Below the pieces are notes generated by a model. It did no database searches, had not been told where the DNA came from, and saw only the letters and a list, made by a program, of their open reading frames with translations. Both the position numbers and the translations under genes were made by a program. Below are positions 9,282 to 34,336 of a DNA stretch of 64,000 nucleotides, in pieces. Every line of letters begins with the position of its first letter. Position 1 is the first letter of the stretch. Origin of the DNA: Terriglobia bacterium (lineage in GTDB: Bacteria; Acidobacteriota; Terriglobia; 20CM-2-55-15); contig CBDCFM010000015.1 of NCBI GenBank assembly GCA_965216035.1, forward strand, positions 117,786-181,785, read 5' to 3'.

Positions 9282-9294
9282 CAGGAAGTGACGC

Positions 9295-12633: not shown

Positions 12634-13434
12634 CATCTGGATGTGCTCCCGGCAATCCCGGATGATCGCGGTTGGCTTGTTGCCCTCGGCGTGCCAAAGG
12701 AGTGGGCGGAGACTGCAATCTTACTGACCGACCGCAAGACCTGGAGCGAGCCCTACTCAGAGTGGCCGCGAAGCAATCCAAAGGGATACATTGCCTGGTT
12801 CAAGGACCGCATGCGTGTGAGCCTCAAAGAGGCCAAGCAACTCCGGGCGATGGAAATACACGCAGAGGTGGAGGAAATCGAAGACTTCGACGTCCGCACC
12901 CCGCTTCAGCGGCTTATCCAGATCCTCAAGCGCCACCGAGACGTGCGCTTCAACGACGATGAAGATAAGCCGATCTCGATCATCATCACCACGCTCGCCG
13001 CACAGGCTTACAACAACGAAAGCGACCTCGCGGATGCCGTGCTGGACGTGGTACCTCGCATGCGCGCTTACATCGAGAATCGAGACGGCGCATGGTGGGT
13101 GCCGAATCCCGTGAACCCGGAGGAGAACTTCGCCGACAAGTGGACAGAAACACCGCGCAAGGCAGAGCTGTTCTTCGAATGGCTCAGTGTACTAGAGCAG
13201 GAGTACACCGAGCTCCTAACGGACCAAGGATTTGCGAATATCGGAGACTATCTGCACGAAGCCTTTGGCAAACGTGACGCCGAAGCCGTGATGGAAAAGC
13301 ACTCCAATAAGAAGCCTCTCCAGGAAAGTGCAGCCGCAGTTGCGCCAATAGTACTCGCGCCGCGTAAATCCGAGCGCCCAACAACTCCGGTGATCGAGCT
13401 TCCGTCGCGACCAAGTAAGCCATGGAGCCCCTGA
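12634..13434 (+). pseudogene. 3' remnant of an OAS/CD-NTase-fold (SMODS-like) nucleotidyltransferase
   Basis: Reading resumes at the IS end with (H)LDVLPAIPDD..., an OAS-like 'DVLPA' strand carrying the third catalytic Asp. A C-terminal helical region of about 260 aa follows. The N-terminal GS/DxD part is missing. The first 16 codons of ORF 12586-13434 are IS sequence. Confidence 0.55.
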
Positions 13435-13440
13435 CCCATC

Positions 13441-14181
13441 GTGGATGAAGGAGTCGAACAATTCGTGATCGATCAGGTAACCGAGGCGCAGGCCCGGCAC
13501 CCACACCTGGAGCTTCTTCGCCACCCGTCGGGTCTGCTCCTGATACGCGGTCGTGTCGGCTTTTCGATAGAGTACGCATCCCACACGGTTTCAGATCATT
13601 ACCTCTTGGATTTGTGGATACTAAAGGACTATCCCGCTTCACCCCCTTTCGTTTTCGAGACGGAAGGAAGAATCCAAAAAGACTTTGGTCACTTCATGGC
13701 GGCAGGCAACTTTTGCCTTGGGGCCCCTGTCGAGGTTCGCCTAAGATTCGCGGTCCATAAGAACCTACTCTGCTTCATAGAGGATCAAGTCATCCCCTAC
13801 CTCTTCGCCTACAGCTACAAGAGAGATTACGGAAAGCTGCCCTTTGGTGACCTTCGGCATGGGTCACACGGATTGCTCCAGTACTACATGGATTTCTTCG
13901 AAACCTCTCACGTTGGAGCAATGAAGCTGCTGAAGTGCTTAGCGGATGATTGTGCTCCGCCGTTCATGGCGTGTCCGTGTGGTGGTGGACGCAGGCTACG
14001 GGACTGTCACGGCGAGAAACTTGCTGAGCTTCGCCCCCATCTACTGCCCAAGGAGTTCGAAACAGAGTTACGAGAAATGATCCGACTTGCGCGGGCAGAA
14101 GGGATCCGATTTCCGGAAAAGAAGGTTATGCCTAAGCAGATGTGGAAACAGTGGCGGAAGAGAATCAAGCGGACACGATAA
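13441..14181 (+). CDS. E2 (UBC)-like protein with C-terminal SEC-C zinc motif
   Basis: GTG start 6 nt after the upstream stop. An E2-like core reads DYPASPPFVFETEG...HFMAAGNFCLG, with a candidate catalytic Cys. The SEC-C motif is CPCGGGRRLRDCHG, followed by a basic tail. Confidence 0.55.
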   Translation: MDEGVEQFVIDQVTEAQARHPHLELLRHPSGLLLIRGRVGFSIEYASHTVSDHYLLDLWILKDYPASPPFVFETEGRIQKDFGHFMAAGNFCLGAPVEVRLRFAVHKNLLCFIEDQVIPYLFAYSYKRDYGKLPFGDLRHGSHGLLQYYMDFFETSHVGAMKLLKCLADDCAPPFMACPCGGGRRLRDCHGEKLAELRPHLLPKEFETELREMIRLARAEGIRFPEKKVMPKQMWKQWRKRIKRTR

Positions 14182-15048: not shown

Positions 15049-15068
15049 CGGCGCGACCAGCATCCACA

Positions 15069-16313: not shown

Positions 16314-16587
16314 GACCGGGGAGCTGGTGGAAGAGAAGTCTGTACCTCCCCTGATTTCTTGGACAGGTAGAGTTGACCATAATCAAGCCGCATACCACAA
16401 CCGCACCGATCGTTCCAGCCGGATGTATCTGCGAACGGTTTCACAAGACCGAGCTCAAGAAGATCTATTATAAGATCCGTTTCGGCAAGAAACCCTACGG
16501 CAGGCTGGAGTCGGCCAGGGAGGAGTTCCTCTCCACAGAAACTGGCAATGCCTCTCCGGCTGTCATGGCGGACTGTCAGATGAAGTC

Positions 16588-19500
16588 GTGCATTTTATAG
16601 CTGAGAGCAGGGAGTCGCCGTTGAATGCTGAAGTGCCCATCCGCGAAGGGCAAGTTCTGACCGGTCCGCTGTTTAGCGAACCGATGCAAGTGGAGACAGT
16701 TCGGCCCAACGGTTTCGGCGTCTGGGTAGCGGGTCTCGTCGGGCAGCGCTCAGAGAGGTTCCGCCGGGTCACGCTGACGTCGGATGACATCTCGAACCTG
16801 AGTATCGCCGACTCTGCTCTCACCTACGATGGCGATGGGCGGCTTTTGCGGATCGCCCTCCAAGCTTATTCGCTCGGCATTGCCTACGAGTTCGACCCCT
16901 ATTTCGGGCTTTCCATCTCGCGTGTGGACCCGCTGCCGCACCAGCTTGAAGCGGTCTACGGGCACCTCCTCAAACTTCCCAGCGTGCGCTTCCTTCTGGC
17001 CGACGATGCGGGGGCGGGGAAGACCATCATGGCCGGTCTCCTGGTCCGCGAGCTCAAGCTGCGGGGCCTCATCGAGCGAGTGCTCGTTGTCTGTCCCGCC
17101 AACCTTTCGTTTCAGTGGCAGCGCGAGCTCAAGGAGAAGTTCGACGAGAAGTTTCTGGTGCTCAAGGGCAGCGACATCCGAGATCAATTTGGTGTCAATC
17201 AGTGGATGGAGCAGAAGCAGATCATCACCTCGCTTGATTTGGCCAAGCGCACGGAGATCTTGCCCGGACTACGGCAGGTCCACTGGGACTTGGTCATCGT
17301 GGACGAGGCACACCGGATGTCGGCGCGGGATGAGACCCACAAGAGCCAGCGGTACAAGCTTGGGGAACTGCTGCGCGACAGTAGCGATCACGTGCTGCTG
17401 CTGACTGCCACACCCCACAAGGGTGATCCGCAGAATTTCACGCTGTTTCTACAGCTGCTCGACAGGGACGCCTACGCCGACGTGAAGTCGATCCACGAGG
17501 CCATGGAACGGAGGCGGGCACCCTTCTACCTGCGTCGCACGAAGGAGGCGATGGTCTATTTCCCGGAGCGTGAGTCGGATGGAGGGTGGGCCGCGAAGCC
17601 TCTTTTCACCAAGCGCATCCCGCGCACTGCCGACTTCGCTATCGATGGTCCTGAGTTCGAGCTCTACCAGAAGATCACGCGGTTCGTGAAGCGACAGAGT
17701 GCTCGGGCCGCGGCGCAGGGCGACGATCCGCGGGCTCGGGCGGTCGGGTTTTTGATGTCGCTTTACCAGCGGCGTCTCGCCTCGAGTACCTACGCTATGC
17801 GGCGGTCGCTTGAGAATCGCGCAAAGCGACTGGATGCGGGCCTCAAGCGCGCTCAAGAGTTGGTACGGCAGGTGCCGCCGGACCTTCCCGACTGGGACGA
17901 ACTCGATGAGTTCGAGGACGCCGAGCGTGAGAGGCTAGAGAGAATGCTGGAGGCGATCACGTTGGCCGGCAACGCCGACCAGGTACGTGAAGAGATTGCC
18001 GAGCTTCTGGAGTTGGCCGAAGAGGCGAATGCCGTCGAGGGTGCGGGTACCGAGGCGAAACTCGGACATCTTCGGAAAATCATGCAAGACGAGGGATTTT
18101 TTGACCGTCCCGACCAGCGCTTACTGCTATTCACAGAGTTCAGGGACACCCTGGACTACCTGATGGAGCAATTGAAAACCTGGGGCTTCAGCGTCGGGTG
18201 CATCCATGGCGGCATGAAATCCGGCTCCCGCGATGAACTCGGGACTCGACTCTACACCGAACAGCAGTTCCGCGAGGGCGCCATCCAGGTTCTGGTGGCG
18301 ACGGAGGCGGCCGGTGAAGGCATCAACCTTCAGTGCTGTCACATCCTTTTTAACTACGACATTCCATGGAACCCGAACCGGCTCGAACAGCGCATGGGCC
18401 GCATCCATCGCTACGGTCAGCGGCACGACTGCCTGATCTTCAACTTCGTTGCCACCAACACTATCGAGGGCCGGGTGCTCGAACGCCTCTTGGACAAGCT
18501 CCAGGTAATCCGCGATGCGCTTGACGACGACGCGGTGTTCAACGTCGTGGGCGAGGTGTTGCCGGCTGCCCACGTCGAGCGCGTGCTCCGGGATTACTAC
18601 GCGGGCAAGTTGGGCGATGCCGATCTCGAGGAGCGGCTGTTGCGGGGCGTGGATGAGGGCCATTTCCGCGCCATTTGCCAGACGGCGCTAGAAGGCTTAG
18701 CCGCTAAGAAACTCAACCTCGACATGCTCATTGAGCGAAGGGCCCGGGCGCAGGAACGACGCGTTGTTCCCGAGACCATTACGCGATTTATCGTGGACTC
18801 CGCCCACGACGCGGGCTTCTCCTTGAAGCCGGTAAGCAAGCTGGCCCATACGTTTCAACCGGGTCGAACACCGTCTATCCTGAAGAAATACGAGCGGGAG
18901 TCAAACTGGAAACTCGCGGAGTTGGCGATCCGCTACCCACGCCTGTCGACGGACCGCGATACGGCCGCGGCGAACAGTCTTGAATGGGTGACTCCCGGGC
19001 ATCCGCTGTTCGAGGCTCTGCGCCGGCACAGCCTTGACACAGGGCAGGCCGCCTTCGCCAGGGGCGCCTGCTTCCATTCACTGGCGCACGAAGCTCCGGC
19101 GCGGCTCGATTTCTACCGTGCACGAGTCGTGGATGGCCTTGGCCAAGTCATCCACGAACGTCTATTCACCTTGGAACTGACGAACGACGGTTCCCCTAGC
19201 CTCCGCGAGCCGGATGTCCTCGGCGACATGAATCCCGGCGCGGTGTCCGATGATTTGCCGTCCGTAGCCACCCTCCCGGAGGCGACCACCTGGCTCAACG
19301 CGAACGCCCTGGTACCCTTCATCGAGGAGGTTCGTGCGGAGCGACTGGCTGAGGTGGAACGTATCGGCGAACACGTTGAGCTCTCCTTGACCGAGGTCCT
19401 ACTGCGGATCGATGAGGAAATCGGCCGCGCCGCAGACGAAGTGGCCAATGAGGTCACTGGTGCCGAGGGGCGTCTCGCGCAGGCCGAAAGCCGCCACGCG

Positions 19501-20061
19501 GAGGTGCTGGCGCGGCGGGAGCGGCGGCGCGAGGAGCTCAAGCGGCAGCGGGCGGTGACACTGCAGGGCGTCGAGCGGCTGGCAAGTGTGCTCATCTTGC
19601 CCCACCCAGAACGCAGCACGCTGGATGTCCATCGCCTGCGCCCGCACCCCGAAACTGAGATGACCGCCATGCGGGTGGTCATAGAATACGAGACCGCGCG
19701 GGGACGTAAGGTCTATGACGTCCATGAGAAGAACCTCGGCTACGACGTGACCAGCCTCGATCTGCAGTCAGGCGAGTTGCGCCTGATCGAAGTGAAGGGT
19801 CTTGCTGCCGCTACAGGAAGTATCCTGCTCACGCCAAACGAACGTCGCGTCGCCGAGGATCGTCCCGACTGCTTCTGGCTCTACGTGGTGACCAACTGCG
19901 CGAGCGCGCCTGAACTGCAGGAACCGATCAAAGACTCGGCTCGATTCCCCTGGCATGAAGTCACCAAGGTTCAGCACTACTGGCTGGACGTCAACGCCAT
20001 GACGCAGCCGATGGACATCCGGGACAACGCAGCCCCTGATCGGGGGAAGGAAACGCCATGA
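16588..20061 (+). CDS. SNF2-family helicase with C-terminal DUF3883-like PD-(D/E)xK domain
   Basis: Helicase motifs are LLADDAGAGKTIMAG (I), VIVDEAHRM (II), LLLTATPHKG (III) and NPNRLEQRMGRIHRYGQ (VI). The C-terminus GYDVTSLD...LRLIEVKG...ILLTPNE...FWLYVV resembles DUF3883. Confidence 0.9.
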   Translation: MHFIAESRESPLNAEVPIREGQVLTGPLFSEPMQVETVRPNGFGVWVAGLVGQRSERFRRVTLTSDDISNLSIADSALTYDGDGRLLRIALQAYSLGIAYEFDPYFGLSISRVDPLPHQLEAVYGHLLKLPSVRFLLADDAGAGKTIMAGLLVRELKLRGLIERVLVVCPANLSFQWQRELKEKFDEKFLVLKGSDIRDQFGVNQWMEQKQIITSLDLAKRTEILPGLRQVHWDLVIVDEAHRMSARDETHKSQRYKLGELLRDSSDHVLLLTATPHKGDPQNFTLFLQLLDRDAYADVKSIHEAMERRRAPFYLRRTKEAMVYFPERESDGGWAAKPLFTKRIPRTADFAIDGPEFELYQKITRFVKRQSARAAAQGDDPRARAVGFLMSLYQRRLASSTYAMRRSLENRAKRLDAGLKRAQELVRQVPPDLPDWDELDEFEDAERERLERMLEAITLAGNADQVREEIAELLELAEEANAVEGAGTEAKLGHLRKIMQDEGFFDRPDQRLLLFTEFRDTLDYLMEQLKTWGFSVGCIHGGMKSGSRDELGTRLYTEQQFREGAIQVLVATEAAGEGINLQCCHILFNYDIPWNPNRLEQRMGRIHRYGQRHDCLIFNFVATNTIEGRVLERLLDKLQVIRDALDDDAVFNVVGEVLPAAHVERVLRDYYAGKLGDADLEERLLRGVDEGHFRAICQTALEGLAAKKLNLDMLIERRARAQERRVVPETITRFIVDSAHDAGFSLKPVSKLAHTFQPGRTPSILKKYERESNWKLAELAIRYPRLSTDRDTAAANSLEWVTPGHPLFEALRRHSLDTGQAAFARGACFHSLAHEAPARLDFYRARVVDGLGQVIHERLFTLELTNDGSPSLREPDVLGDMNPGAVSDDLPSVATLPEATTWLNANALVPFIEEVRAERLAEVERIGEHVELSLTEVLLRIDEEIGRAADEVANEVTGAEGRLAQAESRHAEVLARRERRREELKRQRAVTLQGVERLASVLILPHPERSTLDVHRLRPHPETEMTAMRVVIEYETARGRKVYDVHEKNLGYDVTSLDLQSGELRLIEVKGLAAATGSILLTPNERRVAEDRPDCFWLYVVTNCASAPELQEPIKDSARFPWHEVTKVQHYWLDVNAMTQPMDIRDNAAPDRGKETP

Positions 20062-21305
20062 CGCCGCCGACCGAGAAATCTGCGGTGCTTGAGGAGCAGT
20101 ACCAATCGGTCGTCGACGATGTGACCGGGCTTATCGACGCGGCCCGACGCTCGGCGGCCCGCTCCGTGAACGCCGTCATGACTGCCGCCTACTGGCTCGT
20201 CGGACGGTACATTGTGGAGTTCGAGCAGGCGGGCGAGGACCGAGCCGAATACCGGGCAGCGCTCATTGAAAGGCTGGCGTCAGATTTGACGAAGCGGTTC
20301 GGTCGAGGGTTCTCTCGCCAGAACATTTGGCAGATGCGCCTGTTCTACCAGACGTATCCCCCTCAGCGAATTCTCCAGACACCGTCTGGAGAATCAGAAT
20401 TGATCCCGTCAAGCCCAAGACCGGAAACCGCGTCTGCAGAATCCTCGCTGGCCGACATCACTTCACGCTTTCCACTGCCGTGGTCCGCCTATGTGCGATT
20501 GCTCTCGGTCAAGAACTTGCGTGCCCGCCAGTTCTACGAGACCGAGGCCCTGCGCGGCGGTTGGTCGGTACGCCAAATCGACCGGCAGATCGACTCCCAG
20601 TTCTACGAGCGCACGGCTCTCTCGAAGAATAAGGCCGCTATGTTGACCCGGGGCGGGAAGGCACGGGCTGAAGACGCTGTGCTTCCCGAGGAGGAAATCA
20701 AAGACCCGTATGTCCTCGAATTTCTGGACCTCAAGGATGAGTACTCCGAGAGCGATCTCGAAGAAGCGCTGATCCGGTGCCTGGAAACCTTCCTCCTGGA
20801 ACTCGGCGGGGACTTCTGCTTCATGGGAAGGCAAAGGCGCCTCCGCATCGGTAATGAATGGTATCGGGTGGATCTACTGTTTTTTCACCGGCGTCTGCGA
20901 TGCCTGGTGGTCGTCGACTTGAAGATTGGCAGATTCACGCACGCCGACGCCGGACAGATGCACCTCTATCTGAACTACGCGCGGGAGCACTGGGTCCATG
21001 AGGATGAAAACCCGCCTGTCGGGCTGATTCTCTGCTCCCAGAAAGATGAGGCCGTTGCTCGATATGCTCTTGAAGGGCTACCGAACAAAGTGATGACCGC
21101 GGAGTATCGAACTACGCTGCCGGACGAGGAAGTTCTGGCCGCGGAAATTGAGAGGACACGGCAGGCAATAAACTTACGCGCCTGGCCTCTCAAGGCCGGC
21201 GTGGGGATCTCACGCGCCAAAGTGACGGCTGGGAGTCCCAAACAAAGGGCAAAGACCATGACGAAAAGGGAACGTGGCGACAGCGGGAAGGACGGACGTA
21301 AATGA
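20058..21305 (+). CDS. DUF1016/YhcG-type PDDEXK nuclease
   Basis: ATGA overlap with the helicase stop. The N-terminal region reads SVNAVMTAAYWLVGRYIVEFEQ...GFSRQNIWQMRLFY. The C-terminal nuclease core reads LEEALIRCLETFLLELGGDFCFMGRQRRLRIGNEWYRVDLLFFHRRLRCLVVVDLKIG. Both are typical of YhcG-like proteins. Confidence 0.85.
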   Translation: MTPPTEKSAVLEEQYQSVVDDVTGLIDAARRSAARSVNAVMTAAYWLVGRYIVEFEQAGEDRAEYRAALIERLASDLTKRFGRGFSRQNIWQMRLFYQTYPPQRILQTPSGESELIPSSPRPETASAESSLADITSRFPLPWSAYVRLLSVKNLRARQFYETEALRGGWSVRQIDRQIDSQFYERTALSKNKAAMLTRGGKARAEDAVLPEEEIKDPYVLEFLDLKDEYSESDLEEALIRCLETFLLELGGDFCFMGRQRRLRIGNEWYRVDLLFFHRRLRCLVVVDLKIGRFTHADAGQMHLYLNYAREHWVHEDENPPVGLILCSQKDEAVARYALEGLPNKVMTAEYRTTLPDEEVLAAEIERTRQAINLRAWPLKAGVGISRAKVTAGSPKQRAKTMTKRERGDSGKDGRK

Positions 21306-21402
21306 TGCGGATCAAGCATCATCATCCTGGATGGAGATCCACGACGCGACGAGTCCGGTTGGGCCATCCACACGCTCGCTCCCTCGCGCAGGTGGAAATC
21401 CC

Positions 21403-24381
21403 ATGATTCCAAAGGAATGCAAGCGACTGGCTGAGGTGGACTTTCCGATAGCGGAGGTCTCTAAGCACGCAGTGCGGGAAAAGCCGATCCGTCACGGGCA
21501 TCCGTCGACGTTGCATCTATGGTGGGCGCGGCGGCCGCTGGCCTCGTCGCGGGCGGTGTTGATGGCGTTGCTGCTACCCGACCCGTGCGACGAGCACTGC
21601 CCGGAAGCGTTCAAGCGGAAAGCCCGCGAGATTCTCCTCGGCATGGATGGGCGGCCGCGCGGATGGACGGAGACTATCGTGCCGAACGAGGGATTGCGGC
21701 AGATCATCCTGAAGTTCATTGCCAATTTCGCCAACTGGGACAATGCCGGGAAACGTGCCTATCTCGATACGGGCCGTGCGCTCGTGAAGGCGGCGTACGG
21801 GAAGGAGTTGCCCCTGGTCGTGGACCCGTTTGCGGGGGGCGGCTCGATCCCGCTCGAAGCGCTACGGCTCGGTTGCGAAACGTTCGCTAGCGACCTCAAC
21901 CCGGTGGCGTGCTTAATTTTGAAGGTGATGCTGGAGGATATCCCGCGACACGGGCCGGAGTTGGCAGAGGAATTGCGTGAGGTCGGCGACAAGATCAAGG
22001 GGGAAGCTGAGCGAGAGTTGACAGATTTCTATCCGAAAGACCCAGACGGCGCGACCCCGATCGCCTATCTCTGGGCGCGCACTGTGTACTGCGAAGCGCC
22101 GAAATGTGGGGCCGAAATTCCACTGATGCGGTCGTTTTGGCTGTGTAAGAAAGAGAAGCGTAAGCGGGCGCTTCGGCGCCGGGTGACGCGGTCCCAAGGA
22201 AAACCGACGCAGGTCGAATTCGAGGTTTTCGAGCCGAAGGCAGACACCGAGGTGCATGGCGGCACGGTGACCCGGGCGAAGGCGAGCTGCGTTTGTTGCG
22301 CTGTGGTGCTGCCGCCGGAGAGAGTGCGGTCGCAACTCGCGGCCCAGCGCGGCGGCGCGGACGTTATTTTCGACGCGGAGGGACGGCGGACAGGGGGAGC
22401 GCGACTGACCGCGGTGGTGACGCTCCGCCCGACACAGGCAGGGCGACACTACCGGCTGCCAACAGACGCGGACTACGCGGCGGTGTGGAAGGCGCAAACA
22501 CGGGCGTCCGAGATACTTGCGGAGTGGGAACGCGGAGGCGAACAGGAGCTCTGTCCGGTGCCGGACGAGCCAACACCCGCTGGCGGAGGCTCTGGGGCCG
22601 GCCGAGCTTTCAGCGTGCGGCGCTACGGCATGCTCCAGTGGGGCGACCTGTTCACAGCACGGCAGAAAGTGGCCTTGATTGGACTCCTCGGACTCATACA
22701 AAGGGCGAAGATCGTCGGCACAAAACAGATGCTCGCCTGCGCATTCAGCCGCGTAACAATGAGCGATATGTCTTGCACGCGATGGAACGCCGTAGCAGAA
22801 AAGATGCAACACACATTCGGCAGGCAAGCCCTACCTATGGTTTGGGACTTTGCCGAGGTCGTGGTTACTGCCGAAGCTCCTGGAAATTGGAAAAGCGGGT
22901 ATAGGCTCATTGGTGATGTCGTCGATGCAGCGTGCAACGAACAGGCTGGGCAAACTCAACTCGCCGATGCAACGGAACACCCTCTTCCCGATCAGACCGC
23001 AGGTGTCTGGTTCACCGACCCGCCCTACTACGATGCCGTTCCCTACGCGGACCTCTCCGACTTCTTCTTCGTCTGGCTGAAACGTGCGTTACCCGATCAC
23101 CAATTGCTGCGCGACCCGTTCGATCCAGACAACCCACTTTCACCGAAGACGGCCGAGGTCGTGCAGGACGAAACCAAGCAGTTCGCCGGCCGACCAAAGG
23201 ACCGCACGTGGTTCGAGGAAACGATGGCAGACGCCTTCACGGAGGGGCGCCGTGTGCTGCGCGAAGACGGCGTGGGTTCCGTTGTCTTCGCACATAAGAC
23301 GACCGAGGGTTGGGAGGCGCTGCTCTCCGGCATGATCCGCGGTGGTTGGACAATTACCGGCTCTTGGCCGATATCAACGGAGATGAAATCGCGACTACGT
23401 GCCCAAAAGTCCGCAGCCCTCGCCACCAGCGTCCATCTGATTTGTCGGCCGCGCCCGGACGACGCGCCAGTCGGCGATTGGGCCGAGGCCCTGCGCTCCT
23501 TGCCTGTCCGTGTTAGCGACTGGATGGAACACCTCCAGGGCGAAGGCGTCCGTGGCGCGGATCTGGTTTTTGCCTGCATTGGTCCCGCGCTCGAGATCTT
23601 CAGTCGCTACGGTGCGGTCGAAACTGCGGAAGGACGTAAGGTCGGTCTGCCCGAATACCTGGAAAAAGTCTGGGAAGTCGTTGGCCGCGCGGCGCTTGAG
23701 CAAGTACTCGGCACGGCGGAGGCACAAGCGCGCAACGGTCTAGCCGGAGCACTGGAGGAGGACGCCCGCCTGACCGCGCTCTTTCTATGGACCCTCCAGA
23801 GCACTGAGGTCTCAGATAAGAACGGCAAGAAGGAAGATGAGGAGGAGGAAGCGGTCTCCAAGACAGCGGCCAAGGGATTTGCTCTCCCCTTCGACGTCGT
23901 GCGCCGCTTCGCCCAACCGATGGGCATTGATCTCGATCTTTGGACCGACCGAATCATCGGCCAGAAAAAAGGCGTGGTGCGACTGCTGCCGGTGGCTGAG
24001 CGGACCAAGGCGCTTTTCGGCGAGAATGGCACCCAAGCCGCCGCCGACTGGATCGAGAGCGATCCGAATGCCAGCTTGCAACAGACGCTCTTTCCCGAAT
24101 TGAACGACGTGCCGAAGACAAGGCGCCGCCACAGAAAAAGGAACCTCCTCGACGGCGATGCCGAACTTCAGACAATCGATGCCACCGCACTGGACCGAGT
24201 ACACGCAGCCATGCTGTTACAGGCCAGTGGCCACGCCAACGCGCTACGGACACTGATCGGGGCCGAGCAGGATCGCGGCCCCGACTTTCTGCGGCTCGCT
24301 AACGCGCTTTCCGCCCTGTATCCGCGCGGCAGCCAGGAAAAGCGGTTGCTGGATGCCATGCTGTTGGCGGTACCCCGTTGA
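21403..24381 (+). CDS. DUF1156-type DNA methyltransferase (N6A/N4C class, DPPY)
   Basis: The likely start is ATG 21403 (MIPKECKRLAEVDFPIAEVS); the 21274 start overlaps the upstream gene. The DUF1156 N-terminus reads HGHPSTLHLWWARRPLASSRAV. The SAM motif is VVDPFAGGGSIPLEA and the catalytic motif is WFTDPPYYDAVPY. Confidence 0.9.
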   Translation: MIPKECKRLAEVDFPIAEVSKHAVREKPIRHGHPSTLHLWWARRPLASSRAVLMALLLPDPCDEHCPEAFKRKAREILLGMDGRPRGWTETIVPNEGLRQIILKFIANFANWDNAGKRAYLDTGRALVKAAYGKELPLVVDPFAGGGSIPLEALRLGCETFASDLNPVACLILKVMLEDIPRHGPELAEELREVGDKIKGEAERELTDFYPKDPDGATPIAYLWARTVYCEAPKCGAEIPLMRSFWLCKKEKRKRALRRRVTRSQGKPTQVEFEVFEPKADTEVHGGTVTRAKASCVCCAVVLPPERVRSQLAAQRGGADVIFDAEGRRTGGARLTAVVTLRPTQAGRHYRLPTDADYAAVWKAQTRASEILAEWERGGEQELCPVPDEPTPAGGGSGAGRAFSVRRYGMLQWGDLFTARQKVALIGLLGLIQRAKIVGTKQMLACAFSRVTMSDMSCTRWNAVAEKMQHTFGRQALPMVWDFAEVVVTAEAPGNWKSGYRLIGDVVDAACNEQAGQTQLADATEHPLPDQTAGVWFTDPPYYDAVPYADLSDFFFVWLKRALPDHQLLRDPFDPDNPLSPKTAEVVQDETKQFAGRPKDRTWFEETMADAFTEGRRVLREDGVGSVVFAHKTTEGWEALLSGMIRGGWTITGSWPISTEMKSRLRAQKSAALATSVHLICRPRPDDAPVGDWAEALRSLPVRVSDWMEHLQGEGVRGADLVFACIGPALEIFSRYGAVETAEGRKVGLPEYLEKVWEVVGRAALEQVLGTAEAQARNGLAGALEEDARLTALFLWTLQSTEVSDKNGKKEDEEEEAVSKTAAKGFALPFDVVRRFAQPMGIDLDLWTDRIIGQKKGVVRLLPVAERTKALFGENGTQAAADWIESDPNASLQQTLFPELNDVPKTRRRHRKRNLLDGDAELQTIDATALDRVHAAMLLQASGHANALRTLIGAEQDRGPDFLRLANALSALYPRGSQEKRLLDAMLLAVPR

Positions 24382-24385
24382 TGGC

Positions 24386-25351
24386 ATGACAAGCGAAAGC
24401 AACAAGCACGCAATCTGGCAAGTATCTGCCGGCCCCTCTGACCGGTCCTATGCGGATCAATTCTTGAACCACGGCGTCGCTCTGATCGGTCCTGGCGATC
24501 CTGGAGAGTGGCGTTCTGATCGGTCCGATGAGGACTTTGAAGGCGGATTTGTCCGCAGGTTCGCCGACGAGATGCGCACGGGCGACGTGCTGCTACTTCG
24601 GACGGGCCTATCCACCATTCGTGCGGTTGGCCTGGTTGCATCCGAGTACCAGTACCTACGGCAGTTCGACGACGTGAATGGCTGGGACTTGCAGCACGGA
24701 CGACGTGTGCAATGGTGCCCGCTTCCCGATCCGTACGACTTCGGGGGACGGGTTTTTGGATCTCACCCCCCTCGGCTTTCGCGTATCCAGGTACCGAGCC
24801 TTATCGAGTATGCGAATCGCTTTGTTCGATCGCCGCCGACGGACTGGCAAACCAGGACTTTGCCGAGCCTGCCGGAGGAGGAAGCGGAACTCGACGCACT
24901 ACCGGTCGAGTTGCAAGAGATTGTTGCTCAAGTCCATGACCTCTCGAAACTCTACTGGGATGTGGATTCTTTCGGGGAGCGACCCATGGAGGACGAGTTG
25001 GTTGTGCACTACATCGTTCCTCTCCTGCGCGCCTTGGGTTGGCCCGTCGAGAGGATTGCCGTGAAGTGGCGCAATATCGACGTGTGTGTGTTCTCCGGGC
25101 TGCCGAGAATCCCGGAAAACTGTCACTGCGTGATCGAAGCAAAAAGATTAGGCGCGGGCGTTGAAGGCGCGCTCGAACAGGCCATCGGATATGTAGAGGC
25201 CCTCGGCGTACCGTGCGACGTGGTCGTTACCGATGGCATACGATACCGAATGTACGATGCCAGCAAGGGTTTTGCGCCTGTAGCTTATGCAAATCTTGCA
25301 CGCTTGAAACAATCGTCTAGGGAACTGTTCGCACGTATGCAAAGACCGTAA
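24386..25351 (+). CDS. two-domain protein: N-terminal small beta-barrel (PUA/EVE-like?) + C-terminal HSDR_N-like PD-(D/E)xK
   Basis: ATG 24386 lies 5 nt after the methylase stop. The C-terminus VHYIVPLLRALGWPVERIAVKWRNIDVCVF...CVIEAKRLGAGVEGALEQAIGY...VVVTDGIRYRMY matches the type I HsdR N-terminal nuclease-fold pattern (D...E.K). The N-terminal call is inference only. Confidence 0.7.
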   Translation: MTSESNKHAIWQVSAGPSDRSYADQFLNHGVALIGPGDPGEWRSDRSDEDFEGGFVRRFADEMRTGDVLLLRTGLSTIRAVGLVASEYQYLRQFDDVNGWDLQHGRRVQWCPLPDPYDFGGRVFGSHPPRLSRIQVPSLIEYANRFVRSPPTDWQTRTLPSLPEEEAELDALPVELQEIVAQVHDLSKLYWDVDSFGERPMEDELVVHYIVPLLRALGWPVERIAVKWRNIDVCVFSGLPRIPENCHCVIEAKRLGAGVEGALEQAIGYVEALGVPCDVVVTDGIRYRMYDASKGFAPVAYANLARLKQSSRELFARMQRP

Positions 25352-25363
25352 CCGGAGGAAACA

Positions 25364-28144
25364 GTGGAACCTTGGTACAAAGTTGTGACGCCTCGCAAGG
25401 AAGTGCGGGAAGGCCGCTCGTTCAGCCCGGATGAGTTTGCGATCGCCCTAGAACAGATACTCGCTAAGACGGCACCCGAGGACTACAGCGATCCAGCTCG
25501 GTTCTTTTCGCGCACCTGCTTTACGCGGGCGTTGAAGGAGCATGCCGGCATGGTCCTTCGGCGACTTTCCGGAAATACCGAAAACACGGCGCCAGTCCTC
25601 ACTTTGATCACCCAATTCGGCGGTGGTAAGACGCACACACTCACCTCACTCTACCATCTCGCCAATGCCGGCCCGGAGGCCTCCAGGTTCCCCGGCGTTG
25701 CCGATCTCCTAAACACGGGAGGGATGACGGAAGCTCCCTCCGCCCATGTTGGAGTGTTCGTCGGTAACGCCTGGGACCCGGCACCGGGGCGGGAGACTCC
25801 CTGGATCGATCTGGCTTACCAGCTGGCTGGCGAGCAGGGCGTCGCTGCGCTTGGCCCTGCCGCGCGGACCACGCCGCCGGGAACTACTTCTCTGGCCAAA
25901 TTGTTTGCTGCCGCGGAGGCACCGGTATTGTTGCTGTTCGATGAAGTCCTGAACTTCGTGAACCGTCATCGTGGCATGGCCGAAAGCTTTCACGCCTTCC
26001 TTCAGAATCTGACCGTCGCCGTCACCGGAACCACTCGGGCTGCAGCGGTCATCAGCCTTCCCCGCAGCCAGGTTGAAATGACCGATTGGGATCAGCAGTG
26101 GCAGGACCGAATCACCAAGGTGGTCCGCCGAGTCGCACGCGACCTGATCGCCAATGACGAATCCGAAATCAGCGAGGTCGTCCGCCGGCGCCTGTTCGAG
26201 GATCTCGGCAACGTGCGGATTCGTAAGAGAGTCGCCAAGACCTACGCAGATTGGTGCTTTGAACGGACCGCCCGCCTGCCCTCCGAATGGCTGGCGGTTG
26301 ACACTGTGACGACGGAGTCTAAAGCGAGGGAGTTTCTGAGAAGCCGGTTCGAGGCGTGCTACCCCTTCCATCCTGCGACTCTCTCGGTGTTTCAACGGAA
26401 GTGGCGGGCGCTCCCCCAGTTTCAACAAACCCGTGGGGCGTTGGCCCTGCTGGCACAATGGATTTCCTGGGCAGCTCGCGAGCATTTTCAGAAAGCGCGA
26501 ACAGAGCCGCTGATCACGTTAGGTTCGGCGCCGTTGGACGTGCCCGAGTTCCGCGCCGTGGTCCTTGGTCAATTGGGCGCGGCGCGGCTCGACGTGGCCA
26601 TCGATGCTGACATCGCCGGGCCAATGGCGCATTCCAAAGCCCTGGATGCGGACACCACGGGACCTCTCCGCGAGATTCACCGCCGTGTGGGTACCGCCAT
26701 CCTGTTCGAATCCTCCGGTGGACAAGTGGACAAAGTGGCTCACCTGCCCGAATTGCGTTTCGCAATCGGCGAGCCTGAGGTCGATACGGCCACCATCGAT
26801 AGCGCCGCGACCAGCTTGGAAGCGTCCGGATTCTTCATTCGGAAGGTTGGGACGGACGGCTATCGCATCCACCACCAAGCGACATTGAAGAAAGTTGTCA
26901 GCGATCGGCGGGCATCGCTCGATGAGGAAACGGAGATCAAACCGGCGGCCCGCAAGCTGGTCGAGGGCGAGTTCAGACGCGGCACAGCCCTGCCGATAGT
27001 TTTCTTCCCGCAGGACAGCACCGCAGTCCAGGACTCGCCACGTCTTGTGCTCATCGTCCTCGACCCCGATTTGGAATGGATGGATAGCAACCAAGTGATC
27101 GAGCACGTTGGCCATTGGACGAAGCAACGGGGCAATTCGCCTCGGCTATACCCGGGGTCGCTGGTCTGGTGTGCGAGGAAACCGGGGAGGGAGCTTCGCG
27201 AGAAGGTTGAATTGTGGCTCGCCTGGCAGCGCGTGGCACACGAGATGGCCGAGGGCGTCCTCGGCACAGAATACGACCGCGCAGATCGCTCGGAGGTTCA
27301 TACCCGTGTCCGGGATGCAGAGGAATCCGCTAAGGACGAAGTGTGGGCAAGCTATCGCTTCGTCGCGCTTGCGGCGACTGAAGAGAAACATGGTCTCAAG
27401 ATCATTGATCTTGGAGCCGGCCACTCCAGCTCAAACGAAACGCTTTGCGGACGGATCATCTCCACGCTGAGAGCCGCGGCACTGCTCAACGAGACCGTGG
27501 GTGCTGGCTACATTGACCGGCATTGGCCGCCTGCGTTTAAGAACACTGCGACCTGGCCGCTGACGAGTCTGCGGCAGAGCTTTCTGAATGGCGCATTGAC
27601 GCGGCTGATTGATCCTGACCTAATTCTTCGGCGGCAGATCGTTGAGTTTGTGGCGCGAGGAGACTTTGGACTGGCGTACGGCCCCAAGGACGATGGTGGA
27701 TTCGAACGGTTGTGGTATGCGGAGCCGATCCGTGACGAAGAGGTGGCGTTTGAGACGAACGTCTTCTTACTGACCAAGACCAGGGTCGAGCAACTCCGGG
27801 AAATCGGAGATCCAGATCACCCGGAATGGAAGCCGGCGCCAAGACCAAGCCCCACTCCTAAACCGGAGCCAGGCCCCGATCCGATTCCGAGCGATCAGAA
27901 AACAACACTGCGACTTGCTGGTGCCGTACCTCCCGAAGTCTGGAACCGTCTAGGAACCAAAATGTTGCCCAAGTTGCGATCCGGAAACGATCTCAGAGTG
28001 GGTGTCGAGTTCTCAGTGAGCGTCAGCTCGGAGTTTGCTCAGAACATGGAGATTGAGTTGCGGCAGATTCTGGATGATCTCGGGCTGGGCGACTGTGTCC
28101 GTGTCGAACGATCTGCGAGCAACGAATCTAAACGTGACAAATGA
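25364..28144 (+). CDS. DUF499-type AAA/P-loop ATPase
   Basis: GTG start with a GGAGGA RBS. Walker A is TQFGGGKTHTLTSL and Walker B is VLLLFDEVLNF. A long C-terminal region typical of DUF499 follows. The stop TGA (28142-28144) abuts the IS5 copy B end. Confidence 0.85.
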   Translation: MEPWYKVVTPRKEVREGRSFSPDEFAIALEQILAKTAPEDYSDPARFFSRTCFTRALKEHAGMVLRRLSGNTENTAPVLTLITQFGGGKTHTLTSLYHLANAGPEASRFPGVADLLNTGGMTEAPSAHVGVFVGNAWDPAPGRETPWIDLAYQLAGEQGVAALGPAARTTPPGTTSLAKLFAAAEAPVLLLFDEVLNFVNRHRGMAESFHAFLQNLTVAVTGTTRAAAVISLPRSQVEMTDWDQQWQDRITKVVRRVARDLIANDESEISEVVRRRLFEDLGNVRIRKRVAKTYADWCFERTARLPSEWLAVDTVTTESKAREFLRSRFEACYPFHPATLSVFQRKWRALPQFQQTRGALALLAQWISWAAREHFQKARTEPLITLGSAPLDVPEFRAVVLGQLGAARLDVAIDADIAGPMAHSKALDADTTGPLREIHRRVGTAILFESSGGQVDKVAHLPELRFAIGEPEVDTATIDSAATSLEASGFFIRKVGTDGYRIHHQATLKKVVSDRRASLDEETEIKPAARKLVEGEFRRGTALPIVFFPQDSTAVQDSPRLVLIVLDPDLEWMDSNQVIEHVGHWTKQRGNSPRLYPGSLVWCARKPGRELREKVELWLAWQRVAHEMAEGVLGTEYDRADRSEVHTRVRDAEESAKDEVWASYRFVALAATEEKHGLKIIDLGAGHSSSNETLCGRIISTLRAAALLNETVGAGYIDRHWPPAFKNTATWPLTSLRQSFLNGALTRLIDPDLILRRQIVEFVARGDFGLAYGPKDDGGFERLWYAEPIRDEEVAFETNVFLLTKTRVEQLREIGDPDHPEWKPAPRPSPTPKPEPGPDPIPSDQKTTLRLAGAVPPEVWNRLGTKMLPKLRSGNDLRVGVEFSVSVSSEFAQNMEIELRQILDDLGLGDCVRVERSASNESKRDK

Positions 28145-29249
28145 CGACCTTGTTGCATGGATCATCCCGAAGGATGTCTTATCATTGTGTTTTTCAACAC
28201 CTGGGATAACTTAGATGCCACATAAGTTCAACGCAGCCCGACGGCACAAGTTTGATAAGGCACAGTACCGGGTGATCAACTGGGCGGAATATAACGAGAG
28301 CCTGCGCCAGCGGGGTGATCTGACGATCTGGGTCAGTGATGAGGCTCAAAGTGTGTGGCGCGCGCCGCGCCGCACGTCACGGGGTGGCCAGCGGAGATAC
28401 TCGGATTTGGCGATCGAGACATGCCTGACGCTGCGCACGGCGTATCGGCTTGGGTTGCGACAAACGCAGGGGCTGATGGGTTCCATTGGCACGCTCATGG
28501 GGCTGGATATACGGGTGCCGGATTACTCCACACTGTCGCGTCGCGCAAACGGCTTGAGCATCGCTCAGGTGATGAGGCAAGCCGGGTCTGTGCCTGTCCA
28601 TCTGGTGGTGGACAGTACCGGCCTCAAGATCTTCGGAGAAGGAGAATGGCTTGCGCAGAAGCATAAAACCAGGGGAATACGCCGCCGCTGGCGCAAACTC
28701 CACCTCGGACTGGACCTCCATAGCGGTGCGATTGTTTGCGCCAATCTGACTCACGATGACGTTGGAGACAGCACCGCCTTACCCGGGCTCCTGGATCAAC
28801 TCGATGCCCCTGTCACGGGCTTTCTGGCGGACGGCGCCTATGATGGAGCGTCCACACGGGATCTGCTGAGGGAACGGTATGGGGAGACCCTGGATGTGGT
28901 TATACCGCCGCCAAAGAACGCAGTGACCCGACCGCAATCAGCGCGGGATCCAACCGTTCGGGATCGCCATATTGCCGAGATCCGCAGCAACGGCCGCATG
29001 GCCTGGCAAGTGGCCACAGGGTACAACCTGCGCAGCCGGATAGAAACGCAGATCGGCCGGTGGAAGAGCGTCATCGGCCCCAGACTCAGATCCCGCAGCT
29101 TCTCCAGGCAGATCACGGAGATCCAGGTCGGCCAGAAAGTCCTGAACACAATGACCGCACTCGGACGGCCTGTGTTCGAACGTATCGCCTGACGCTACCG
29201 CTTGGGAAAGGGCGAATTCCATCTCCGCCCCGATCCATGCAACAACGCT
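28145..29249 (+). mobile_element. IS5-family insertion sequence, copy B
   Basis: Same orientation and ends as copy A (TTGTTGCATGGATC at 28150; ATGCAACAA ends 29245), with only a handful of substitutions. No matching target-site duplication appears at any of the four junctions. Confidence 0.9.
28215..29192 (+). CDS. IS5-family DDE transposase
   Basis: 325 aa with 2 aa differences from the copy at 11599-12576. Confidence 0.9.
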   Translation: MPHKFNAARRHKFDKAQYRVINWAEYNESLRQRGDLTIWVSDEAQSVWRAPRRTSRGGQRRYSDLAIETCLTLRTAYRLGLRQTQGLMGSIGTLMGLDIRVPDYSTLSRRANGLSIAQVMRQAGSVPVHLVVDSTGLKIFGEGEWLAQKHKTRGIRRRWRKLHLGLDLHSGAIVCANLTHDDVGDSTALPGLLDQLDAPVTGFLADGAYDGASTRDLLRERYGETLDVVIPPPKNAVTRPQSARDPTVRDRHIAEIRSNGRMAWQVATGYNLRSRIETQIGRWKSVIGPRLRSRSFSRQITEIQVGQKVLNTMTALGRPVFERIA

Positions 29250-30738: not shown

Positions 30739-30880
30739 ATCCTTATCATGTTTTACCGACCAGATCGGGGCCGTTAACCAGAGATTCTTTGCCGCGTTGT
30801 ATGCGCGAACGAGTAAAGAAGCATCGCCCTGATAATCCCGGCCCGCCTCTGTTGCATCGTCCTGGCAGCGTTGTCGGGCA

Positions 30881-33937: not shown

Positions 33938-33981
33938 GCCCGATCAGCCTCCGGAATCCGAGCCTTCCCGCAGGGATTATT

Positions 33982-34252: not shown

Positions 34253-34336
34253 GGTCCAATTTCCGATGGCTTTGCCACCAGTTTTCGAGGCTGAATCAAG
34301 ACGCATATCCTTCCAACAAATGAGCCATCTGTGATC

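What the first reader, a model, noticed from the sequence alone, without database searches (positions are those of the whole stretch)
16588..28144. Expanded helicase-methylase-ATPase (Hma-type) cluster with two extra nuclease-fold genes: best candidate for an uncharacterised defence system
Seen: five same-strand ORFs are packed with an ATGA overlap (20058-20061), a 97-nt gap, a 4-nt gap and a 12-nt gap. (a) The SNF2 helicase has motifs GAGKT, DEAH and QRMGRIHRYGQ, plus a C-terminal DUF3883-like PD-(D/E)xK module (GYDVTS...LIEVKG). (b) A DUF1016/YhcG PDDEXK nuclease follows. (c) The DUF1156 methyltransferase has FAGGGS and DPPY motifs. (d) A 321-aa protein carries an HSDR_N-like PD-(D/E)xK C-terminus. 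(e) The DUF499 ATPase has GGGKTH and LLLFDEV motifs. Established: the helicase + DUF1156 + DUF499 triad is a recurrent R-M-like association in defence islands. I believe it is what PADLOC calls Hma, but I cannot verify the name here, and as far as I know its mechanism is unresolved. Inference: two additional nuclease-fold genes sit between the core genes, one translationally coupled to the helicase. This suggests an expanded subtype with up to three separate PD-(D/E)xK modules and a possible modified-base reader. The whole cluster is bracketed by IS copies next to other defence debris.
Basis: partly seen in the sequence, partly recalled or inferred. Interest (0 to 1): 0.85.

Follow-up and report, generated by a model that had tools for sequence, protein, structure and literature searches.

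The report
Hma defence operon with embedded nucleases
This is an intact copy of a known helicase-methylase-ATPase anti-phage system (Hma, also called a Type-1 BREX-related system) with two extra nuclease genes between its core genes, which is a documented habit of these systems; the mildly new part is that one passenger is an uncharacterised protein combining a modified-base-reader fold with a nuclease.

Summary
HMM searches identify HmaA, HmaB and HmaC (PADLOC E = 3e-168, 5e-112, 3e-91). They also identify a DUF1016/YhcG nuclease (PADLOC candidate PDC-S02). The 321-aa protein belongs to Pfam DUF8426.

The reading as a new "expanded subtype" is only partly right. Gene embedding in Hma is already published: about 63-66% of Hma loci carry embedded genes.

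DUF1016 is facultative. It occupies the hmaA-hmaB slot in 10 of 51 related loci.

DUF8426 has an EVE/YTH-like reader fold joined to a PD-(D/E)xK nuclease, a described design for Type IV restriction enzymes. Its 80 closest genomic relatives all sit in Hma loci, usually directly upstream of hmaC. However, 6 of 7 close HmaC relatives that I looked up lack it, including one whose HmaC is 94% identical to that of a carrier. Its distant relatives are stand-alone genes.

Both extras are therefore best read as embedded second-layer nucleases, not core subunits. The locus is a new member of a known kind. DUF8426 is a reasonable untested defence candidate that is absent from PADLOC-DB v2.

The parts
16588..20061 (+). 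hmaA: SNF2-family helicase with a C-terminal NOV_C/DUF3883 PD-(D/E)xK nuclease. It is the predicted effector.
   Evidence: PADLOC HmaA 2.7e-168 over residues 62-1102. Pfam SNF2-rel_dom, Helicase_C and NOV_C at 1024-1110. Motifs GAGKT142, DEAH239, QRMGRIHRYGQ601, GYDV1051 and EVKG1068. Homologues are 63-89% identical across many phyla.
20058..21305 (+). Embedded gene 1: DUF1016/YhcG PD-(D/E)xK nuclease (PADLOC candidate PDC-S02). Its start overlaps the hmaA stop (ATGA).
   Evidence: Pfam DUF1016_N 1.9e-41 and YhcG_C 3.8e-57. PADLOC PDC-S02 1.1e-135. Overlap shown. Found in the same hmaA-hmaB slot in 10 of 51 related loci, in L004, and in 6 full ORFs by PADLOC.
21403..24381 (+). hmaB: DUF1156 N6-adenine-type DNA methyltransferase with a variable central region, the likely target-recognition domain.
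   Evidence: PADLOC HmaB 4.6e-112. Pfam DUF1156 1.5e-21. FAGGGS143 and DPPY539. Conservation drops to 0.44-0.52 over residues about 361-520 among 30 homologues. Homologues align from residue 1 of the ATG-21403 start.
24386..25351 (+). Embedded gene 2: DUF8426 protein. The N-terminal half has an EVE/YTH-like (PUA superfamily) fold and the C-terminal half is an HsdR_N-like PD-(D/E)xK nuclease. It is a predicted modification-dependent endonuclease.
   Evidence: Pfam PF28530 is precomputed for this protein and its homologues. The AF2 model has pLDDT 85.3. Foldseek matches VcaM4I, the EVE proteins PH1033 and Atu2648, and YTH domains, at E 4e-4 to 4e-2 and probability 0.9-1.0. Invariant residues E202/E204, D232, E251-x-K253 and Q265. 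Sub-threshold HSDR_N hits in 7 of 10 family members.
25364..28144 (+). hmaC: DUF499 ORC/Cdc6-like AAA+ ATPase. It is full length and starts at a GTG preceded by GGAGGA.
   Evidence: PADLOC HmaC 2.6e-91. Pfam DUF499. GGGKTH86 and LLLFDEV189. Homologues of 913-938 aa align to residues 1-917 or 1-926. Start context.
28145..29249 (+). Right copy of an IS5-family insertion sequence (transposase 28215-29192). It begins at the base after the hmaC stop codon.
   Evidence: Alignment of the two copies. Pfam DDE_Tnp_1_5 and DDE_Tnp_1. Repeat family D4.
11529..12633 (+). Left copy of the same IS (transposase 11599-12576), in direct orientation and about 99% identical. It truncates a CBASS cyclase gene.
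12634..14181 (+). CBASS remnant: a 5'-truncated CD-NTase (reading frame up to 13434) followed by an E2 (Cap2-like) gene at 13441-14181.
   Evidence: PADLOC Cyclase 6.5e-79, matching only profile positions 129-360 of 388, and E2 1.5e-63. NCBIfam cGAS 2.5e-13.

Best explanation
The segment is one operon that encodes a complete Hma (Type-1 BREX-related) restriction-modification-like system, with two single-gene nuclease cassettes embedded in its inter-gene slots.

Core system (inferred from the families, and from published work on homologues):
- HmaB methylates adenines at a motif set by its variable central domain, and so marks host DNA.
- HmaC is an ORC/Cdc6-like AAA+ ATPase that acts as sensor and scaffold on DNA.
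- HmaA translocates along unmarked DNA and nicks or cuts it with its C-terminal PD-(D/E)xK domain.

Cassette 1 is a DUF1016/YhcG nuclease in the hmaA-hmaB slot (PADLOC candidate PDC-S02).

Cassette 2 is DUF8426 in the hmaB-hmaC slot. It is a modular enzyme with an EVE/YTH-like pocket that reads a modified base, joined to a PD-(D/E)xK nuclease. That is the Type IV, modification-dependent design.

The two passengers are co-transcribed with Hma and most likely act on their own as a second layer. DUF8426 would catch phages whose hypermodified DNA escapes methylation-based discrimination. BrxU/GmrSD plays this role inside BREX, and HEC-05/06 do so inside Hma.

What has been shown, by others and on homologues: HmaA defence and nickase activity, and the autonomy of several Hma-embedded genes. 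Everything about this particular locus is inference.
For: 1. Identity of the core. All three PADLOC Hma models, Pfam SNF2+NOV_C, DUF1156 and DUF499, and all catalytic motifs are present. All five ORFs are full length against homologues. Promoter-like and terminator-like sites inside the operon are no more frequent than in shuffled sequence, and the junctions are tight or overlapping.

2. Embedding is the published norm for Hma, and embedded genes tested alone were protective (bioRxiv 10.1101/2024.01.29.577857; PMC11232893; PMC12839542).

3. The slots are hot spots in this same clade. In the 80 loci keyed on the 321-aa protein, hmaA-hmaB holds more than 300 nt in 41 of 51 and hmaB-DUF8426 holds more than 300 nt in 26 of 74. 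The contents are HEC-01A/B, PDC-S02 and AriA/GajA/Old-like ATPases.

4. DUF1016 is facultative: 10 of 51 loci.

5. DUF8426 is exchangeable.
- 6 of 7 HmaC homologues at 77-82% identity that I looked up lack it. They carry DUF433+DUF5615 or AAA_15/21(+DUF4276) cassettes instead.
- The HmaC of one locus without it (P0383, L172) is 94% identical to that of a carrier (L022).
- L022 and L172 lie at the same chromosomal site. Their hmaA genes are 95.5% identical at nucleotide level and their hmaC genes 91%, but the slot contents differ.

6. The DUF8426 family can stand alone. Eighty relatives at 30-38% identity have no Hma genes nearby and no conserved neighbour at all, with 122 Pfam families among 146 neighbours.

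7. Architecture. EVE/YTH-like fold plus invariant E..D..ExK..Q residues. EVE-PD(D/E)XK fusions are described as putative Type IV enzymes (PMC7641849), and PUA-superfamily sensors joined to PD-DExK nucleases are described as the modular plan of modification-dependent enzymes (PMC12191111).
Against: - The Hma-linked DUF8426 lineage was found only in Hma loci (80 of 80), mostly 12-25 nt upstream of hmaC (64 of 77 within 100 nt).
- Its divergence tracks that of HmaA and HmaC (Mantel r = 0.86 and 0.87, against 0.93 for HmaA versus HmaC). A freely mobile stand-alone gene would be expected in other contexts too.
- Only one of the five AF2 models was confident. The other four had mean pLDDT 41-56.
- The EVE/YTH match rests on fold alone, with target-normalised TM 0.5-0.6. 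No Pfam EVE or YTH HMM hit was found.
- No experiment exists for this locus, for DUF8426 or for PDC-S02.
- The methylated motif and the base read by the pocket are unknown.
Confidence: 0.65

Rival explanations
1. DUF8426 of this lineage is an accessory subunit of Hma rather than an autonomous enzyme. Its YTH/EVE-like pocket would read the methylation state of DNA, for example the m6A written by HmaB. It would thereby help the HmaC/HmaA machinery tell self from non-self, or add a cut.
For: - The lineage occurs only in Hma loci, and almost always directly upstream of hmaC.
- It co-diverges with HmaA and HmaC (r = 0.86-0.87).
- The best fold matches include m6A-reading YTH domains, and the gene sits next to a DPPY adenine methylase.
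- Stand-alone EVE proteins were already noted beside the COG1743/DUF499/SNF2-nuclease operons of archaea, and were proposed to discriminate modified DNA for that system (PMC7641849).
- A cyanobacterial Hma carries an HsdR_N-like nuclease in the same position after hmaB.
Against: - It is absent from 6 of 7 close HmaC relatives that I looked up, and from a locus whose HmaC is 94% identical to a carrier's. Unrelated cassettes take its place.
- Distant family members are solitary genes.
- Co-divergence is also expected if a passenger is simply inherited with its host operon.
- Fold search cannot tell m6A specificity from 5mC, 5hmC or other specificities.
Confidence: 0.2
2. Both extra nucleases are 'auxiliary or backup effectors' that work through the Hma complex, as in the multi-layered model of Rakesh and Krishnan. 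They would compensate for or reinforce the HmaA nuclease rather than sense anything themselves.
For: - PD-(D/E)xK nucleases are the most common auxiliary effectors next to or inside BREX and BREX-related loci (PMC12839542).
- DUF1016 overlaps the hmaA stop codon.
- 5' remnants of DUF1016 persist directly after hmaA in L022 and L173.
Against: - HmaA here keeps its own intact nuclease motif, so nothing needs compensating.
- Both genes are dispensable in close relatives.
- DUF8426 has its own sensor-like domain.
Confidence: 0.1
3. The cluster is an inactive leftover of a defence island that is being eroded by IS elements, like the adjacent CBASS remnant.
For: Two IS copies bracket the segment. 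One of them truncates the CBASS cyclase, and the other abuts the hmaC stop codon.
Against: - All five ORFs are intact, full length and retain every catalytic motif.
- The IS lies after the stop codon, not inside hmaC.
- No further hma fragments occur elsewhere in the window.
Confidence: 0.05

Closest known systems
Hma system (PADLOC; Payne et al. 2021, PMC8565338) with embedded genes (Payne et al. 2024, bioRxiv 10.1101/2024.01.29.577857)
   Same: The three core proteins match (HMM hits), on the same strand. Each slot holds no more than three embedded genes. Related loci carry the published HEC-01 and PDC-S02 passengers.
   Different: This clade is far from the Hma of cultured plasmid hosts: the nearest plasmid HmaC is only 34.6% identical. 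Its DUF8426 passenger is not among the PADLOC-DB v2 models.
Type-1 DUF499-centred BREX-related (BR) system (Rakesh and Krishnan 2026, PMC12839542)
   Same: DUF499 ATPase, DUF1156 N6-methyltransferase, and SNF2 helicase with a C-terminal active PD-(D/E)xK domain. No PglZ and no DUF3780. Auxiliary PD-(D/E)xK nucleases lie inside the locus.
   Different: HmaC has no N-terminal HEPN fusion. The main text of that paper does not describe an EVE-like reader fused to a nuclease as a recurrent Type-1 passenger.
Halomonas meridiana Hma (Liu et al. 2024, PMC11232893)
   Same: HmaA has SNF2 and NOV_C domains. Defence genes are inserted between hma genes.
   Different: The passengers there are Septu and an AAA_21 pair. 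Only hmaA was shown to act, alone and against T4, and no HmaB effect was seen. Nothing has been tested for the present clade.
EVE-PD(D/E)XK putative Type IV restriction endonucleases (Bell, Wolf and Koonin 2020, PMC7641849); VcaM4I (PDB 6yex)
   Same: A PUA-superfamily reader domain fused to an endonuclease. VcaM4I is the top structural match.
   Different: VcaM4I carries an HNH nuclease, not a PD-(D/E)xK one. DUF8426 gives no hit to the Pfam EVE model. One DUF8426 lineage lives only inside Hma operons. In archaeal DUF499 operons the reported partner was a stand-alone EVE protein.
BREX with embedded BrxU/GmrSD (cited)
   Same: A methylation-based system that targets unmodified DNA carries an embedded enzyme that targets modified DNA.
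   Different: The host system and the enzyme family both differ. The analogy is functional inference only.

Membership tests
Hma (PADLOC definition) | HmaA, HmaB and HmaC each match their HMM | tested here: met
   E = 2.7e-168, 4.6e-112 and 2.6e-91.
Hma (PADLOC definition) | All hma genes lie on one strand, each occurs once, none is a pseudogene, and at most three genes sit between neighbouring hma genes | tested here: met
   One gene in each slot, all on the + strand, all full length. The rule is quoted.
Hma (PADLOC definition) | Anti-phage activity | not testable with these tools
   Shown only for Halomonas HmaA (PMC11232893).
Type-1 BREX-related system | DUF499 AAA+ ATPase present, with no PglZ (Type-3) and no DUF3780 or HKD-helicase (Type-2) | tested here: met
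   Pfam finds DUF499 only. None of the five proteins hits PglZ, DUF3780 or PLD.
Type-1 BREX-related system | SNF2 helicase with a C-terminal active PD-(D/E)xK nuclease | tested here: met
   NOV_C at 1024-1110. D1053 and E1068-V-K1070.
Type-1 BREX-related system | N6-methyltransferase with an N-terminal DUF1156 domain | tested here: met
   DUF1156 maps to residues 14-69 when counted from the ATG at 21403. FAGGGS and DPPY are present.
DUF1016/YhcG (PADLOC PDC-S02) | DUF1016_N and YhcG_C domains score above the Pfam cut-offs | tested here: met
   141.8 and 193 bits, against cut-offs of about 33. PDC-S02 1.1e-135.
Pfam DUF8426 (PF28530) | Match to the family model | tested here: met
   The assignment is precomputed for the window's own protein and all listed homologues. 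The model is not in the local Pfam copy.
Type IV (modification-dependent) endonuclease, EVE-PD(D/E)XK class | PUA-superfamily (EVE/YTH) reader domain | tested here: inconclusive
   The fold matches PH1033, Atu2648, YTH domains and VcaM4I at probability 0.9-1.0. There is no sequence hit to EVE or YTH models, and only one of five AF2 models was confident.
Type IV (modification-dependent) endonuclease, EVE-PD(D/E)XK class | Intact PD-(D/E)xK catalytic residues | tested here: met
   E202/E204, D232, E251-x-K253 and Q265 are invariant in 40 sequences and kept in relatives at 30% identity. HSDR_N hits are below threshold.
Type IV (modification-dependent) endonuclease, EVE-PD(D/E)XK class | Cleavage depends on a modified base, and no cognate methylase is needed | not testable with these tools
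   Distant relatives have no conserved neighbour. That fits the feature but does not prove it.
Fourth core gene of Hma (hypothetical 'expanded subtype') | Present in all close relatives of the system | tested here: not met
   Only 1 of 7 HmaC relatives I looked up carries it. At least 24 of the 120 closest HmaC clusters share a contig with a listed DUF8426 hit, or are otherwise known carriers. An HmaC 94% identical to a carrier's lacks it.

The most novel reading that the evidence does not exclude
The Hma-resident DUF8426 lineage is not just a passenger. It would be a dedicated reader-nuclease that senses the adenine methylation written by HmaB, or its absence or hemi-methylated state, through a YTH/EVE-like pocket. 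That would make this clade a four-part system in which writing, reading and cutting of one mark are carried out by separate proteins.
Probability: 0.12. Interest if true: 0.65.

Novelty: new member of a known kind. Interest (0 to 1): 0.35.

Why it matters
The locus adds no new kind of system. It is a clean, intact example of Hma/Type-1 BR with embedded genes, a system whose mechanism is still unresolved.

Its practical value is DUF8426. This is a family of hundreds of 50%-identity clusters with a reader-plus-nuclease design. It is not in PADLOC-DB v2, and no paper in the searched library mentions it by name.

One lineage of the family is confined to the slot directly upstream of hmaC in an Hma clade that has spread across at least 15 phylum-level lineages, judged from record titles, with 60-90% protein identity. 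Testing it would do one of two things. It could add a new Type IV restriction family useful for detecting modified DNA. Less probably, it could reveal a methyl-mark reader working with Hma.

One cultured carrier exists for such tests: Desulfoferrobacter suflitae DRH4 (L068).

Tried and rejected
1. DUF8426 as a fourth core gene of an Hma subtype. I held this view after the census keyed on the 321-aa protein: 80 of 80 loci in Hma and co-divergence r = 0.87. I dropped it after the sample keyed on HmaC.

2. Truncation of hmaC by the adjacent IS. Rejected, because homologues of 913-938 aa align to the end of the protein and the IS begins after the stop codon.

3. Sequence search of the PDB with the DUF8426 profile. 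It returned only spurious designed repeat proteins.

4. A metagenome scan with a 49-sequence alignment of distant relatives. I repeated it with 14 sequences.

5. Context look-ups of two distant representatives. Both gave contigs too short to be useful.

6. A scan of viral contigs for HmaC. It found nothing.

7. The plasmid collection. It holds no close relative of this clade, the best HmaC being 34.6% identical, so it gave outgroups only.

8. Homology between the DUF8426 C-terminal half and the HsdR_N-like gene that follows hmaB in Planktothrix. The similarity is at motif level only: BLASTP E = 0.002 and hhalign probability 9%. I do not claim it.

9. Target-site duplications or a composite-transposon signature for the two IS copies. 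Nothing convincing appears in the flanks.
Full report
**Observation**

The window holds five co-directional ORFs at 16588-20061, 20058-21305, 21403-24381, 24386-25351 and 25364-28144. There is an ATGA overlap at 20058-20061, followed by gaps of 97, 4 and 12 nt. Every quoted motif is present at the stated proteins. Promoter-like and terminator-like sites inside the segment are no more frequent than in shuffled sequence. This fits a single operon.

**Identity of the genes**

- Pfam finds SNF2-rel_dom, Helicase_C and NOV_C (DUF3883) in protein 1.
- It finds DUF1016_N and YhcG_C in protein 2, DUF1156 in protein 3 and DUF499 in protein 5.
- The PADLOC models give HmaA 2.7e-168, HmaB 4.6e-112, HmaC 2.6e-91 and PDC-S02 1.1e-135.
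- NCBIfam gives only sub-cut-off matches to the related DISARM DrmD and the 'anti-phage-associated' DUF1156 and DUF499 families.
- Protein 4 (321 aa) has no hit in these local libraries, but the protein collection assigns it to Pfam PF28530/DUF8426.

**What is already known**

- Hma was defined by PADLOC in 2021 (PMC8565338).
- Halomonas HmaA alone protects E. coli against T4, and needs both its helicase and its NOV_C nickase (PMC11232893).
- Rakesh and Krishnan (PMC12839542) re-describe these loci as Type-1 DUF499-centred BREX-related systems. They also catalogue auxiliary nucleases, mostly PD-(D/E)xK, inside such loci.
- Payne et al. (bioRxiv 10.1101/2024.01.29.577857) showed that 62.7% of 1,485 Hma systems carry embedded genes. 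Most of the embedded candidates they tested (their 'HEC' genes) defend on their own.
- Bell et al. (PMC7641849) describe EVE-PD(D/E)XK fusions as putative Type IV enzymes. They also noted stand-alone EVE proteins beside archaeal DUF499 operons.

**The 321-aa protein**

The top 120 homologues are all at least 68% identical and about 321 aa long. An exhaustive search finds 767 clusters at the 50%-identity level with E up to 1e-3, including full-length relatives down to about 30% identity.

An AF2 model built from a 40-sequence alignment reached pLDDT 85.3, although only one of the five models was confident.

Foldseek against the PDB matches the N-terminal half to several reader folds:
- the modification-dependent endonuclease VcaM4I;
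- the EVE proteins PH1033 and Atu2648;
- many m6A-binding YTH domains.

These matches have probability 0.9-1.0 and target-normalised TM 0.5-0.6.

The C-terminal half carries invariant E202/E204, D232, E251-x-K253 and Q265. These are retained in distant relatives. HSDR_N hits are below threshold but recur in 7 of 10 members.

The protein is therefore built like a modification-dependent endonuclease.

**Census keyed on the 321-aa protein**

The 80 best loci among GTDB species genomes come from at least 15 phylum-level lineages by their record titles (Alphaproteobacteria to Patescibacteria, plus one Bathyarchaeia MAG). The protein there is 58-82% identical to the window's.

- Wherever the contig allows, hmaC follows it (77 loci) and hmaB coding sequence precedes it (74 loci).
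- The gap to hmaC is 100 nt or less in 64 of 77 loci (median 17).
- The gap from the hmaB end is 100 nt or less in 45 of 74 loci (median 13).
- The hmaA-hmaB interval exceeds 300 nt in 41 of 51 loci.
- DUF1016 lies between hmaA and hmaB in 10 of those 51 loci. Two of these are remnants.
- ORFs in the slots match HEC-01A/B, PDC-S02 and AriA/GajA/Old-like ATPases.
- Pairwise distances of DUF8426 correlate with those of HmaA and HmaC (Mantel r = 0.86 and 0.87). HmaA against HmaC gives 0.93, and HmaB against the others gives 0.53-0.59.
- HmaB is variable mainly over residues about 361-520.

**Census keyed on HmaC**

The 120 closest HmaC clusters are 77-100% identical to the window's. I looked up seven of them.

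- Only one (P0369, L174) has DUF8426 upstream of hmaC.
- The others hold DUF433+DUF5615 or AAA_15/21 with or without DUF4276.
- This sample leans towards loci not already known to carry the gene.
- Matching contig lengths, and adding loci known, gives a lower bound of 24 carriers among 120. Of the 11 loci I could resolve, 5 carry it.
- One HmaC from a locus without DUF8426 is 94% identical to that of carrier L022.
- L022 and L172 share flanks. Their hmaA genes are 95.5% identical at nucleotide level and their hmaC genes 91%, yet the slot contents differ.
- L022 has a duplicated hmaB 3' fragment directly before the gene. Similar hmaB 3' remnants lie in the slots of L039, L169-L171 and L177.

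These remnants look like recombination footprints of cassette exchange.

**Distant relatives**

Eighty metagenomic loci encoding relatives 30-38% identical to the window protein contain no hmaA, hmaB or hmaC. They have no recurrent neighbour at all, and 146 neighbouring ORFs hit 122 different Pfam families. The family at large therefore consists of solitary genes.

**Synthesis**

The cluster is a bona fide, intact Hma/Type-1 BR system. DUF1016 is a facultative passenger of the hmaA-hmaB slot. DUF8426 is a long-resident, Hma-specific passenger of the slot in front of hmaC. It is exchangeable with other cassettes, and it derives from a family of stand-alone reader-nucleases.

The most economical mechanism is layered defence. 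Hma attacks DNA that lacks the HmaB mark, and DUF8426 attacks DNA that carries a foreign modification. The role of DUF1016 is unknown beyond its nuclease fold.

The alternative, that this DUF8426 lineage has become functionally tied to Hma (for example by reading m6A), is not excluded. It is weakened by the gene's absence from near-identical systems.

**Surroundings**

- Two direct IS5-family copies of 1105 bp, about 99% identical, lie at 11529-12633 and 28145-29249.
- The left copy cuts a CBASS cyclase, which is followed by an E2 gene. The right copy starts at the base after the hmaC stop.
- Downstream are RepA_C, VirB11-like, VirD4-like, VirB8 and VirB6 genes. Upstream are flagellar genes.
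- No close relative of this Hma clade is found in the plasmid collection (best HmaC 34.6% identical) or in viral contigs.

**Verdict**

This is a new member of a known kind, of moderate to low interest. DUF8426 is a concrete, testable candidate.

Noticed in passing
window 11529-12633 and 28145-29249: Two direct copies of a 1105-bp IS5-family element, about 99% identical, bracket 15.5 kb that holds the CBASS remnant, three unassigned ORFs and the Hma operon. The right copy starts exactly one base after the hmaC stop codon. I saw no clear target-site duplications, so whether this is a composite transposon or two separate insertions remains open.
   Followed up: partly
window 12586-14181: CBASS remnant. 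A CD-NTase lacks about its first 128 profile positions, cut by the left IS. It is followed by an apparently intact E2 (Cap2-like) gene. No effector gene was recognised.
   Followed up: partly
L022 9788-9990; L039 11013-11135; L169 5384-5554; L170 2986-3156; L171 5037-5171; L177 5219-5353: Short duplicated copies of the hmaB 3' end (the last 45-70 codons) lie inside the hmaB-hmaC slot, next to embedded cassettes. They look like footprints of cassette exchange by recombination at the end of hmaB. The window itself has none.
   Followed up: partly
L022 3434-3769; L173 3321-3656; L039 4308-4907: 5' fragments of a DUF1016 gene (the first 112-194 codons) persist directly after hmaA in loci where other genes now fill the slot. 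This suggests that DUF1016 was an earlier occupant that has been replaced.
   Followed up: no
L005-L084: This Hma clade is unusually conserved across very distant hosts. Minimum pairwise identity is 63% for HmaA and 54% for HmaC over at least 15 phylum-level lineages (judged from record titles) and one archaeal MAG. That implies recent and wide horizontal spread. Nearly all carriers are uncultured MAGs; the one isolate is Desulfoferrobacter suflitae DRH4 (L068).
   Followed up: partly
window 22483-22962 (HmaB residues about 361-520): The least conserved stretch of HmaB among 30 homologues (column conservation 0.44-0.52, against 0.8-0.9 elsewhere) lies between motif I (FAGGGS) and motif IV (DPPY). 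A swappable target-recognition domain would look like this. It also explains the weaker co-divergence of HmaB with the other genes.
   Followed up: partly
L087 8122-8742 (Planktothrix agardhii plasmid p3); L086 4124-4741 (Calothrix plasmid): Distant cyanobacterial Hma loci carry a roughly 205-aa HsdR_N/DUF450-like 'type I restriction endonuclease'. In Planktothrix it lies directly after hmaB. It shares only motif-level similarity (D..EAK..Q..Y..TxG) with the DUF8426 C-terminal half.
   Followed up: partly
window 14502-16370: The ORFs between the CBASS remnant and hmaA have no hit in Pfam, PADLOC or NCBIfam. They are 14502-14960 on the - strand (152 aa) and 15069-16313 on the - strand (414 aa), the latter overlapped by a 318-aa + strand ORF.
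   Followed up: no
window 36983-39715: Three tandem copies of a roughly 920-nt unit, 76-86% identical, correspond to three consecutive - strand paralogous ORFs inside the type IV secretion gene block.
   Followed up: no
window 49556-49888, 5759-6333 and 47700-48006: An 84-nt tandem repeat with about 4 units at 89-91% identity. A 242-nt direct repeat spaced 333 nt apart lies inside an unassigned 608-aa ORF (5346-7172). A 109-nt repeat is spaced 198 nt apart.
   Followed up: no
window 29455-37091: Directly downstream of the right IS lie RepA_C, VirB11-like ATPase, VirD4/TraG-like coupling protein, VirB8 and VirB6/TrbL genes. The defence island therefore abuts a conjugative plasmid-like or ICE module, while flagellar genes lie upstream (7932-10683).
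   Followed up: no
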